From a virus (Duplodnaviria; Heunggongvirae; Uroviricota; Caudoviricetes): DNA of 48,271 nucleotides. The position numbers and the translations under genes were made by a program. The notes beneath the pieces are model-generated. The model worked only from the letters and a program-made list of their open reading frames with translations, made no database searches and was not told where the DNA came from. Shown piece after piece: positions 4,672 through 6,946 of this stretch; within the stretch, counting starts at the first letter, position 1; each line of letters starts with the position of its first letter. The stretch lies in IMG/VR virus record IMGVR_UViG_2558860170_000007; one strand, written 5' to 3'.

Positions 4672-5423
4672 TCAGATTCCCTGGTGAGTAAGAATTTTAC
4701 TTTCTGAACTCCTCTGAGAGTATTGACTTGGAGAAACACCAAAATAACGTCTAAATACATAAGTAAAGTATGAGACACTGGCATAACCACAGACCTTAGC
4801 TACTTTACTAATAGGATAACAACGAGTGCTGAGTAAATATTCAGCCATTTGCATCCTCTCATCAAGTATGATCTTACTGAATGATACCCCCTCTTCTTTC
4901 AATTTCATCTTTAGTAAACTTTCGCTGAGATATAATCTTGATGATATATCCTTAAGACGCCATGGTGCAGATAAATCCGTATGAATAATCGTTTTAACTT
5001 TAGCCCTGTGCTTTTCAAACATCCAAACAGAAATACTCCAAATTGTTTTTCAGAAGAAAATGCAGAGAGACATGTAAAAGCAATAGACTCATCAAAAATT
5101 TCTATGTATTCAGCACAGTGATTAGCCCAACTAATTAATCCTTTAATTAAACTGAAGTCAGCAAAGTTTATTTTTAAATAAGATGGATATTCCCTACAAT
5201 CAGAAATATCCCTTAAGTTATTAGCTTTCAAATAGCGACTAATAAACTCAGCGCCAAAATCCGCCACTATCACTCTTTCAGGATATGTCAGGAAAAAATC
5301 TCTAGAGCTAGAGTCGACAAGTACAGATGAACCTCTCTCCAGAAACACACTCTCTTTTCCGAAATAAACATCAAAGGACTCCAAAATCAATATAACTGAA
5401 CATGTAGTTGCCATATCATCCAC
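4672..5423 (-). pseudogene. AraC-family transcriptional regulator (AppY/EnvY-like), apparently frameshifted
   Basis: Two overlapping ORFs in different frames (4911..5423 N-terminal part, 4672..5022 C-terminal HTH part) whose products are collinear with AppY-type regulators. The frame change maps to a T5 run at about 5046-5050. Gene is AT-rich. Confidence 0.6.
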
Positions 5424-5429
5424 CCAATT

Positions 5430-6197
5430 GGTAATGACTCCAACTTATTGATAGTGTTTTATGTTCAGATAATGCCCGATGACTTTGTCATGCAGCTCCA
5501 CCGATTTTGAGAACGACAGCGACTTCCGTCCCAGCCGTGCCAGGTGCTGCCTCAGATTCAGGTTATGCCGCTCAATTCGCTGCGTATATCGCTTGCTGAT
5601 TACGTGCAGCTTTCCCTTCAGGCGGGATTCATACAGCGGCCAGCCATCCGTCATCCATATCACCACGTCAAAGGGTGACAGCAGGCTCATAAGACGCCCC
5701 AGCGTCGCCATAGTGCGTTCACCGAATACGTGCGCAACAACCGTCTTCCGGAGACTGTCATACGCGTAAAACAGCCAGCGCTGGCGCGATTTAGCCCCGA
5801 CATAGCCCCACTGTTCGTCCATTTCCGCGCAGACGATGACGTCACTGCCCGGCTGTATGCGCGAGGTTACCGACTGCGGCCTGAGTTTTTTAAGTGACGT
5901 AAAATCGTGTTGAGGCCAACGCCCATAATGCGTGCAGTTGCCCGGCATCCAACGCCATTCATGGCCATATCAATGATTTTCTGGTGCGTACCGGGTTGAG
6001 AAGCGGTGTAAGTGAACTGCAGTTGCCATGTTTTACGGCAGTGAGAGCAGAGATAGCGCTGATGTCCGGCAGTGCTTTTGCCGTTACGCACCACCCCGTC
6101 AGTAGCTGAACAGGAGGGACAGCTGATAGAAACAGAAGCCACTGGAGCACCTCAAAAACACCATCATACACTAAATCAGTAAGTTGGCAGCATCACC
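5430..6197 (-). mobile_element. IS1 (768 bp), complete copy
   Basis: Terminal inverted repeats GGTAATGACTCCAACTTATTGAT (5430 onward) and GGTGATGCTGCCAACTTACTGAT (reverse complement ending at 6197); insA (5867..6142) and insB (5445..5948) ORFs on the minus strand. No flanking direct repeat. Confidence 0.95.
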
Positions 6198-6946
6198 AGC
6201 CTTCTTGAGGCTACCACCTGTTTTCAGGTGTCATTCAGACGTGATTTGCCCCAGATTGGGAAAGCACGCTTTTTTCTCAGCTATCGTCCTCTTATTTTGC
6301 CGTTACATTTCTTTTTGCACTCTAATGATTAATTTACAATAATAATATCGGTAATTATTGAGTAATAATAAATTGATTATTGCAAATGTAATTTAATTCC
6401 ATCTTCGCGTTATATTCCAATCTTTAATCTCCGCATGGAACAAGTTGCATGCGTGACTATATTAAGACAACTTATAACCACCAAAACATTTGCTTTGCAA
6501 GCAAAAACAGTGACCATTGACTCTAAGAAAATTCCGATCTATTGTTAGGGTCATCAAAGTTACTTAACAGTATTCCGAAATGAAAATACAAAGCAAGCTA
6601 ATTGTCTTATTAAACATTATTATTGCATTTATATTATTTGAGCTTTTAGCTCAAAAATTTGGTTTGAGTACATTATTTTAAAGCAAGATAAACAATATCG
6701 GGCACTCTAGTTTTTATAATTAACAATTAAACGTCCATAAAATGTTATTTACTTTTCTTCGCTATTGTCATATCTTAATATAGTGGCTTACGCCACTCTA
6801 CTTTCATCACATTTTGTACGTTTATGTACTCGCCATGAAGCTCTTTCATGGCGATTTTTTATTCTTAATCCAAGAACATACTCCCTACCTATAGCAAAAT
6901 CACTTTTTTAACAAAAGAATAACGTATTTAGGTAATCATTACGAAT

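What the first reader, a model, noticed from the sequence alone, without database searches (positions are those of the whole stretch)
4672..6946. AppY-like AraC-family regulator with a homopolymer frameshift, an IS1 inserted just upstream, and a 750-bp ORF-free AT-rich tract beyond
The AraC-family gene is split into two frames at a T5 run (about 5046-5050). IS1 (5430-6197) lies a few bases upstream of its start codon, separating it from an unusually long AT-rich region (6198-6946) that has no ORF of 60 aa or more on either strand. In DLP12 an AraC-type regulator (appY) follows the tail fibre genes, so this looks like the same module, with its probable long upstream region cut off by IS1. A homopolymer frameshift could be a genuine pseudogene, a phase-variable switch, or a sequencing error.
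Basis: partly seen in the sequence, partly recalled or inferred. Interest (0 to 1): 0.45.

Follow-up and report, generated by a model that had tools for sequence, protein, structure and literature searches.

The report
Dead patE regulator gene behind IS1
This is the known prophage acid-resistance regulator gene patE, switched off twice in Shigella sonnei (a one-base deletion in the coding frame and an IS1 element that replaced its promoter region), which is ordinary gene decay for this IS-laden pathogen.

Summary
An AraC-family gene on the minus strand (ATG 5414, stop 4672) is split into two frames. A complete 768-bp IS1 (5430-6197) sits 15 bp upstream of its ATG. Positions 6198-6946 are the most AT-rich 749 bp of the window (68% AT) and hold no ORF of 60 aa or more.

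The lesion is misplaced. It is not the T5 run (5046-5050) but a one-base loss in a C4 run, now CCC at 5004-5006.

The intact allele is 246/247 identical to O157:H7 Sakai ECs_0287, which I take to be patE. It is 35% identical to YdeO and 28% to AppY.

None of 654 complete E. coli genomes with the gene carries the frameshift. The exact truncated product occurs in many independent assemblies labelled Shigella sonnei, and the window is 100% identical to HE616528.1. So it is a fixed pseudogene, not a sequencing error or a phase switch.

IS1-free phages (ev099, mEp332) show the ancestral layout: tfa, a 1,505-bp gene-free spacer, then patE. Here IS1 replaces the gene-proximal 743 bp, including the best promoter candidate. 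The surviving tract is the distal half, mostly phage backbone shared with prophages that lack patE.

Verdict: known gene, known kind of decay, low interest. One weak side lead is a conserved, unannotated 33-codon ORF (6580-6681).

The parts
4672..5414 (-). patE-orthologous AraC/XylS regulator pseudogene. It is 743 bp where intact alleles have 744 bp (247 aa). The frameshifted product is 167 aa and lacks the DNA-binding domain.
   Evidence: the intact allele is 246/247 identical to Sakai ECs_0287. Pfam HTH_AraC/HTH_18 hits occur only in the downstream frame.
5004..5006 (-). The inactivating lesion: CCC where intact alleles have CCCC (G4 to G3 on the coding strand, after codon 137).
   Evidence: Alignment A1. 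0 of 654 complete E. coli genomes with the gene share the lesion. The exact truncated product is present in S. sonnei assemblies.
5415..5429 (-). The 15 bp of native 5' leader left between the ATG and IS1.
5430..6197 (-). Complete IS1 (768 bp; insA 5867-6142, insB' 5445-5948). It is transcribed in the same direction as the regulator gene. There is no target-site duplication (flanks CACCCAATT and AGCCTTCTT).
   Evidence: It replaces 743 bp that are present in IS1-free phages.
6198..6368 (.). Part of the spacer found only in the patE-carrying phage type. The first 85 bp (48% GC, several hairpins) also occur alone at the ends of other prophages.
6369..6946 (.). AT-rich phage backbone next to tfa, shared at 94-96% identity with lambdoid prophages that lack the regulator.
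6580..6681 (+). Conserved, unannotated 33-codon ORF (MKIQSKLIVLLNIIIAFILFELLAQKFGLSTLF). A promoter-like site lies at 6517-6545 and an intrinsic terminator-like hairpin plus T run at about 6830-6864. Candidate only.
6947..7463 (-). Tail fibre assembly gene tfa, broken by a 65-bp deletion near 7340 (frames 7323-7463 and 6947-7399).
   Evidence: tfa is intact (193 aa) in L009 and in E. coli relatives.
3968..4630 (.). Two fragments of an IS3-family element (annotated as partial ISEc48 in Sakai) that travel with the regulator gene in every context seen.
2575..3968 (+). tRNA-Arg(CCU) argW (2575-2649) and integrase intS (2811-3968; an upstream GTG at 2775 is also possible). This is the attachment end of the defective lambdoid prophage.

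Best explanation
The region is the cargo end of a defective lambdoid prophage integrated at argW in Shigella sonnei. It carries the orthologue of patE, a prophage AraC/XylS regulator that in O157:H7 activates acid-resistance genes (gadE, gadBC, hdeAB) and lowers LEE expression.

The gene is dead for two independent reasons.
1. An IS1 that entered the 1.5-kb AT-rich spacer between tfa and patE later deleted the adjacent 743 bp. That removed all but 15 bp of the native upstream region, including the best promoter candidate.
2. One G was lost from a G4 run after codon 137. This shifts the frame and removes the whole helix-turn-helix DNA-binding domain from the product.

The remaining AT-rich tract is the distal half of the original spacer and is mostly phage backbone.

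Shown: the lesion, the IS1 boundaries, the ancestral IS1-free layout, the distribution of both alleles, and the identity to ECs_0287.

Inferred: that ECs_0287 equals z0321/patE, that the deleted DNA held the promoter, that the gene is now silent, and that the loss is neutral decay.
For: - Lesion: one missing C in a C4 run is the only difference from intact alleles over 830 bp. The product stops at 167 aa, before the HTH domain.
- Real and lineage-fixed: 0 of 654 complete E. coli genomes with the gene carry the lesion. The exact 167-aa product is indexed in 157 blocks of assemblies, including 7 with chromosome-size contigs. Sources name it from Shigella sonnei in 78 contigs.
- Source: window 1-11414 is 100% identical to HE616528.1.
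- Identity: 246/247 to Sakai ECs_0287, the only regulator annotated there with this sequence, in prophage Sp1 at thrW. PMC10877973 places patE = z0321 on OI-8.
- Ancestral layout without IS1: phages ev099 and mEp332 and about eight IMG/VR contigs.
- The best sigma-70-like site (TTGGCA-18-TATACT) lies 34-63 bp upstream of the ATG, within the deleted DNA.
- No target duplication at this IS1. Nested junction variants are seen in relatives: 207 bp upstream of the ATG, 15 bp upstream, and inside the ORF.
- IS1 expansion and pseudogene accumulation in S. sonnei are documented in PMC7373316.
Against: - No expression data exist. Read-through from IS1 (same orientation) could still transcribe the gene.
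- The equivalence ECs_0287 = z0321 (patE) was not checked against the EDL933 sequence, because neither that record nor the original paper was available.
- I did not survey all S. sonnei lineages, so 'fixed' rests on many assemblies but not on a phylogeny.
- One contig with the frameshift (L010) has a bioA/ybhB left flank instead of intS. This remains unexplained.
Confidence: 0.9

Rival explanations
1. The frameshift is a sequencing or assembly error in a homopolymer, and the gene is really intact.
For: The lesion lies in a homopolymer. No complete E. coli genome shares it.
Against: The identical truncated product is called in 157 index blocks of independent assemblies: finished chromosomes, another chromosome-scale assembly (UGZB01), short-read drafts and a Logan run. 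It appears in 78 contigs labelled S. sonnei.
Confidence: 0.02
2. The homopolymer is a phase-variable switch that turns the regulator on and off by slipped-strand mispairing.
For: The lesion is a length change in a homopolymer within a regulator gene.
Against: The run is only 4 nt, far shorter than known contingency tracts. All 654 E. coli genomes with the gene have C4. All S. sonnei copies examined have C3. The gene has also lost its upstream region, so switching the frame back on would not restore normal expression.
Confidence: 0.02
3. IS1 acts as a mobile promoter. It drives the regulator by read-through or a hybrid promoter, so the IS1 junction is an activating change rather than an inactivating one.
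For: IS1 is transcribed in the same direction as the gene and ends 15 bp from the ATG, so a possible ribosome-binding stretch is kept. The same junction occurs with an intact ORF in E. coli (L002, L032). IS1 lies within about 500 bp upstream of the gene in about 199 E. coli genomes.
Against: No outward-facing promoter-like site was found at the IS1 end. In this window the ORF is frameshifted, so any transcript yields a protein without a DNA-binding domain. IS1 is expected to target AT-rich DNA (my own knowledge), which would explain the recurrence without any selection.
Confidence: 0.06
4. Loss of the regulator was selected in S. sonnei (pathoadaptive loss) rather than being neutral decay.
For: There are two independent inactivating events in one small gene. 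In O157:H7 PatE affects acid resistance and type III secretion genes.
Against: The IS1 deletion is shared with E. coli that keep the ORF intact, so it is not Shigella-specific. The neighbouring tfa and the prophage as a whole are also decaying. No convergent loss in other Shigella species was examined.
Confidence: 0.1

Closest known systems
PatE (z0321 / ECs_0287) of E. coli O157:H7, prophage CP-933H/Sp1 (OI-8)
   Same: The intact allele of this gene is 246/247 identical in protein and about 99.5% identical in DNA. That covers about 650 bp of upstream DNA in IS1-free relatives and the IS3-family remnant downstream.
   Different: Here the gene is frameshifted and has lost its upstream region. 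It sits in a lambdoid prophage at argW rather than in the Sp1 remnant at thrW.
YdeO (E. coli K-12)
   Same: Nearest chromosomal paralogue: 35% identity over the full length (E 2e-47). It is also the best NCBIfam model and belongs to the same acid-resistance regulatory circle.
   Different: The match scores 146.7 bits against a cut-off of 348, so it is not an equivalog. The 'YdeO' label in some S. sonnei annotations is an over-call.
AppY of the DLP12 prophage
   Same: Same family and two-domain architecture. Same position and orientation: downstream of the tail-fibre genes, behind a long AT-rich gene-free spacer.
   Different: Only 28% identity. There is no similarity between the two upstream spacers.
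IS1-mediated adjacent deletion and IS1 expansion in Shigella
   Same: One IS1 end stays fixed while the other flank is eaten away to different extents in related genomes, and there is no target duplication. IS1 is the main IS in Shigella genome decay (PMC7373316).
   Different: Nothing unusual. An independent simple IS1 insertion with an 8-bp duplication is seen in the same upstream region in another context (L070).

Membership tests
AraC/XylS transcription regulators | C-terminal domain of about 100 aa with two helix-turn-helix motifs | tested here: met
   Pfam HTH_AraC (1.1e-15) and HTH_18 (2.7e-15) hit the downstream frame 4672-5022. In this window that domain is out of frame with the N-terminal part.
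PatE orthologue (ECs_0287 / z0321) | Near-identity over the full length to the O157:H7 protein | tested here: met
   246/247 for the intact allele. The window copy differs from the intact allele by the single-base deletion only.
PatE orthologue (ECs_0287 / z0321) | Shared flanking DNA (synteny of the module) | tested here: met
   The IS3-family remnant downstream is shared with Sakai. In IS1-free relatives 647 bp upstream are shared with O157:H7 EC4115.
PatE orthologue (ECs_0287 / z0321) | ECs_0287 is the gene published as patE (z0321) | not testable with these tools
   The EDL933 record and the original paper were not available. Inferred from the OI-8 location given in PMC10877973 and from the Sp1 annotation.
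PatE orthologue (ECs_0287 / z0321) | Functional activator of gadE/hdeAB | tested here: not met
   The predicted product ends at 167 aa without a DNA-binding domain. Sequence-based; no assay was done.
AppY orthologue | High identity to K-12 AppY | tested here: not met
   28% identity, E 7e-35.
YdeO equivalog (NCBIfam NF007407) | Score above the curated cut-off of 348 bits | tested here: not met
   146.7 bits.
IS1 | About 768 bp, terminal inverted repeats, and insA plus insB' reading frames | tested here: met
   5430-6197 with both repeats. Pfam Zn_ribbon_InsA, HTH_Tnp_IS1 and DDE_Tnp_IS1 all hit.
IS1 | 8-9 bp target-site duplication of a simple insertion | tested here: not met
   Flanks are CACCCAATT and AGCCTTCTT. 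This fits a deletion next to the element; 743 bp are missing relative to ev099.
Phase-variable (contingency) locus | Long simple repeat whose length varies among close relatives | tested here: not met
   The run is 3-4 nt. All 654 E. coli genomes with the gene have C4. All S. sonnei copies examined have C3.
H-NS-silenced horizontally acquired DNA | AT content well above the genome average | tested here: met
   68.4% AT against 49% for the window as a whole.
H-NS-silenced horizontally acquired DNA | Excess of the high-affinity H-NS motif, or measured H-NS binding | tested here: inconclusive
   Matches to TCGATAAATT are no more frequent than in dinucleotide-preserving shuffles. Binding itself cannot be tested here.

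The most novel reading that the evidence does not exclude
The AT-rich tract is not empty spacer. It carries an unannotated small gene of lambdoid phages: a 33-residue hydrophobic peptide (6580-6681, + strand) with its own promoter-like site (6517-6545) and a strong terminator (about 6830-6864). This could be a small membrane protein or a type-I-toxin-like moron.

For: the ORF is intact in all 58 copies examined. It has about one third of the site variability of its flanks (7 of 88 sites against 95 of 425; Fisher p = 0.0012). Its changes are 5 synonymous to 2 non-synonymous.

Against: there is no Shine-Dalgarno sequence, the sequence diversity is low, no divergent homologue was found, and no family matches.
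Probability: 0.2. Interest if true: 0.35.

Novelty: already known. Interest (0 to 1): 0.13.

Why it matters
It matters little beyond correct annotation.

- The S. sonnei ORFs here should be labelled as a patE pseudogene, not 'YdeO' or two separate genes.
- S. sonnei lacks this prophage input into the GadE/HdeAB acid-resistance circuit that O157:H7 has.
- The locus is a clean small example of IS1 nibbling away adjacent DNA in steps across related genomes.
- If the 33-codon ORF proved real, it would add one more small membrane peptide to the cargo region of lambdoid phages.

Tried and rejected
- Early wrong turn. Comparison with O157:H7 EC4115 alone suggested the tract had nothing to do with the gene's upstream region. 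The IS1-free phages ev099 and mEp332 corrected this: the tract and the gene share one 1,505-bp spacer.
- Sources not available. The original PatE paper (PMC3416394) and the EDL933 record NC_002655 are not held. A whole-word search for 'Z0321/patE' returned mostly unrelated papers.
- Rfam. No RNA family matches inside the tract at gathering score or at E up to 1. The only hit nearby is IS009, inside tfa.
- H-NS motif. Counting showed no excess over composition.
- appY upstream. No similarity between the appY upstream region and this spacer.
- The 33-aa ORF. Pfam and PHROGs gave no hit. tblastn against phages found nothing. The query was too short for the search for related loci and the search for homologous proteins. 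A codon-degenerate DNA pattern found nothing in species-representative genomes, and in viral contigs only the set already found.
- Junction count. A junction-spanning query could not count exact junctions, because the tool joins separate pieces. It instead revealed several different IS1 positions upstream of the gene.

Full report
**What is in the sequence**

- On the minus strand, an ORF from ATG 5414 (an in-frame GTG lies at 5423) runs to a stop at 4911-4913. It has no Pfam hit.
- A second frame, open from 5049 down to the stop at 4672, carries the AraC-type helix-turn-helix domains: HTH_AraC 1.1e-15 and HTH_18 2.7e-15.
- Positions 5430-6197 are a complete 768-bp IS1 with both terminal repeats. 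insA (5867-6142) and insB' (5445-5948) lie on the minus strand, so IS1 reads in the same direction as the regulator gene.
- Positions 6198-6946 are 68.4% AT, which is essentially the most AT-rich 749 bp of the window. The longest ORFs there are 52 aa (starting inside IS1) and 48 aa.

**Where the frameshift is**

- I aligned 4600-5500 with two E. coli loci in which the gene is annotated intact (744 bp, WP_000246058.1).
- There is a single difference across the gene: the window has CCC at 5004-5006 where the intact alleles have CCCC.
- The T5 run at 5046-5050 is identical in all three sequences. It merely adjoins the stop codon (5050-5052) that bounds the downstream frame.
- The frameshift follows codon 137. 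The predicted product is 167 aa and ends before the DNA-binding domain.

**Real mutation, error or switch**

- A 61-nt probe centred on the lesion matched 654 of 5,426 complete E. coli genomes. None matched exactly; every hit differed by at least the one-base gap.
- Taken alone, that result could suggest a sequencing error.
- However, an exact look-up of the 167-aa product found it in 157 index blocks of public assemblies, seven of them with contigs over 1 Mb, plus many short-read drafts and a Logan run.
- The sources name it from Shigella sonnei in 78 contigs.
- The first 11,414 bases of the window are 100% identical to HE616528.1, which I recall as S. sonnei 53G.
- The allele is therefore real and clonal in S. 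sonnei.
- A 4-nt run that is invariant in 654 E. coli genomes and invariant (one base shorter) in the S. sonnei copies examined is not a phase-variation tract.

**Which regulator it is**

- The intact allele is 246/247 identical to Sakai ECs_0287, in prophage Sp1 at thrW.
- A 2024 review places patE (z0321) on OI-8. It describes PatE as an AraC/XylS regulator that activates gadB, gadC, gadE and hdeAB and lowers the expression of several LEE genes (PMC10877973).
- I could not obtain the z0321 sequence or the original paper, so the step ECs_0287 = patE is an inference.
- Against K-12 paralogues the protein is 35% identical to YdeO over its full length, 28% to AppY, and 39% to EnvY over the C-terminal half only.
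- NCBIfam ranks the YdeO model first, at 146.7 bits against a cut-off of 348.
- 'AppY-like' is therefore right about family, architecture and genomic position, but wrong as an identification.

**The ancestral layout and what IS1 did**

- The whole 749-bp tract occurs uninterrupted in the free lambdoid phages mEp332, PhiR70_1 and ev099.
- In ev099 and mEp332 the order is J, lom, stf, tfa, a 1,505-bp gene-free spacer (34.6% GC), the regulator gene, the IS3-family remnant, an 84-bp fragment of an intS-type integrase, attP, and int.
- About eight IMG/VR contigs show the same IS1-free arrangement.
- Relative to ev099, the window has IS1 in place of 743 bp (L017 4259-5000), leaving 15 bp upstream of the ATG.
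- The deleted DNA holds the best sigma-70-like site of the spacer (TTGGCA-18-TATACT), 34-63 bp upstream of the ATG.
- The deleted DNA also holds a 62-nt piece that I recognise as the 3' part of tRNA-Ser(CGA) serU. This piece marks the point where similarity to the O157:H7 Sp1 copy ends.
- There is no target duplication at this IS1.
- Related genomes keep the same IS1 junction on the tract side (6198) but different amounts of upstream DNA: 207 bp before the ATG in L001 and L005, and 15 bp in the window, L002 and L032.
- Other relatives have lost sequence on both sides, with IS1 ending inside the ORF (L020, L007).
- This pattern is the classic signature of IS1-mediated adjacent deletion.
- In the Sp1-like context, another IS1 sits in the same upstream region with an 8-bp duplication (L070). 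That is an independent simple insertion.
- About 199 E. coli genomes have IS1 within roughly 500 bp upstream of the gene.

**What the surviving tract is**

- It is the distal half of the spacer.
- The stretch 6369-6946 occurs at 94-96% identity next to tfa in prophages that lack the regulator, for example at the Qin site and next to sitABCD.
- The stretch 6198-6368 goes with the patE-carrying phage type. Its first 85 bp also occur alone near the ends of other prophages.
- No gene is annotated in the tract in any of the listed E. coli genomes that carry it. Two of the four phage records annotate a 'hypothetical protein' over it; in ev099 this overlaps only its left end.
- No Rfam family matches inside the tract.
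- The H-NS high-affinity motif is no more frequent than composition predicts. H-NS silencing therefore remains an inference from AT content.

**Context**

- The window begins with yfdF, mlaA, yfdC, argW and intS.
- E. coli F404 has a complete lambdoid prophage in the same place and orientation, with intS next to the cargo end.
- In the window the prophage is decaying. tfa has a 65-bp deletion that another S. sonnei assembly (L009) lacks.
- Several more IS1 copies lie further along the window, along with IS21-type transposase genes (istA/istB).
- This fits the documented expansion of IS1 and accumulation of pseudogenes in S. sonnei (PMC7373316).

**Mechanism and verdict**

- The gene is a doubly inactivated cargo regulator.
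- Step one is the loss of the upstream region to IS1. This is shared with some E. coli that still have an intact ORF.
- Step two is the frameshift, seen only in the S. sonnei-labelled assemblies. Apart from that frameshift the ORF carries no other lesion relative to the intact alleles.
- Read-through from IS1 cannot be excluded, but it would yield only a 167-aa protein without a DNA-binding domain.
- Nothing here departs from known biology: a known gene, a known element, and a known mode of decay.

**Side lead**

- Inside the tract, a 33-codon ORF (6580-6681, + strand) encodes a hydrophobic peptide.
- It is preceded by a promoter-like site (TTGACT-17-TATTGT, 6517-6545) and followed by a strong hairpin plus T run (about 6830-6864).
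- The ORF is intact in all 58 copies I collected.
- In the part not fixed by my search pattern, 7 of 88 sites vary, against 95 of 425 in the flanks (Fisher p = 0.0012). Five of the seven changes are synonymous (binomial p about 0.01-0.04).
- The predicted transcript folds better than shuffled controls (z = -3.2).
- Against a real gene: no Shine-Dalgarno sequence, little diversity, no family match, and no divergent homologue. It has been called as a gene on only two contigs in a 15-billion-protein collection.
- I rate it a weak candidate.

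Noticed in passing
window 6580-6681 (+), with 6517-6545 and about 6830-6864: An unannotated 33-codon hydrophobic ORF with a promoter-like site and a strong terminator. It is intact in 58 of 58 related copies, less variable than its flanks, and its changes are mostly synonymous. There is no Shine-Dalgarno sequence and no homologue outside this phage group.
   Followed up: partly
window 6947-7463 (-): The tail fibre assembly gene tfa is broken by a 65-bp deletion near 7340. 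Another S. sonnei assembly (L009) and E. coli relatives have the intact 193-aa gene, so this lesion is younger than the patE frameshift.
   Followed up: partly
window 6987-7185 (-): Rfam family IS009 (RF02111) matches at 218 bits entirely inside the tfa coding region. The 'sRNA' model appears to describe coding sequence of tail fibre assembly genes.
   Followed up: no
L017 (phage ev099) 4830-4891; the same sequence in L003 (O157:H7 EC4115): A fragment of about 62 nt matching the 3' part of tRNA-Ser(CGA) serU (recognised from memory; ARAGORN finds no full tRNA). It lies exactly where the patE module shared by ev099-type phages and O157 Sp1 ends. This suggests the module was once an island bounded by serU. 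It is deleted in the window.
   Followed up: partly
window 3885-3968; L017 2714-2797; L001 3286-3369: Lambda-att phages (ev099, mEp332) and bio-site prophages carry an 84-bp 3' fragment of an intS-type integrase next to the IS3-family remnant. In the window the full intS occupies that place. This looks like a vestige of integrase-module exchange between argW-type and lambda-att-type phages.
   Followed up: partly
L010 (CXEP01000015.1): A contig with the same frameshift and the same IS1 junction (100% identical to window 3885-5460) has ybhB/bioA on the left flank instead of intS. Several bio genes on it are fragmented. The organism and the reason are unknown.
   Followed up: no
L020 (E. coli CE0021a) and L007 (F404): Where IS1 has cut into the 5' end of the regulator ORF, RefSeq annotates 'AraC family' proteins of 235-251 aa. 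In CE0021a the annotated start lies inside IS1, which would be an IS1-regulator fusion ORF.
   Followed up: no
window 40813-43714: Two IS1 fragments (40813-41043 and 43174-43714) match adjacent parts of IS1 and flank IS21-type transposase genes (istA/istB, 41145-43114). This looks like an IS1 copy split by an IS21 insertion. A LacY-family permease gene of 415 aa follows at 43848-45095.
   Followed up: no
window 39800-40650: The only other stretch of the window about as AT-rich (66% AT or more over 749 bp) as the tract under study.
   Followed up: no
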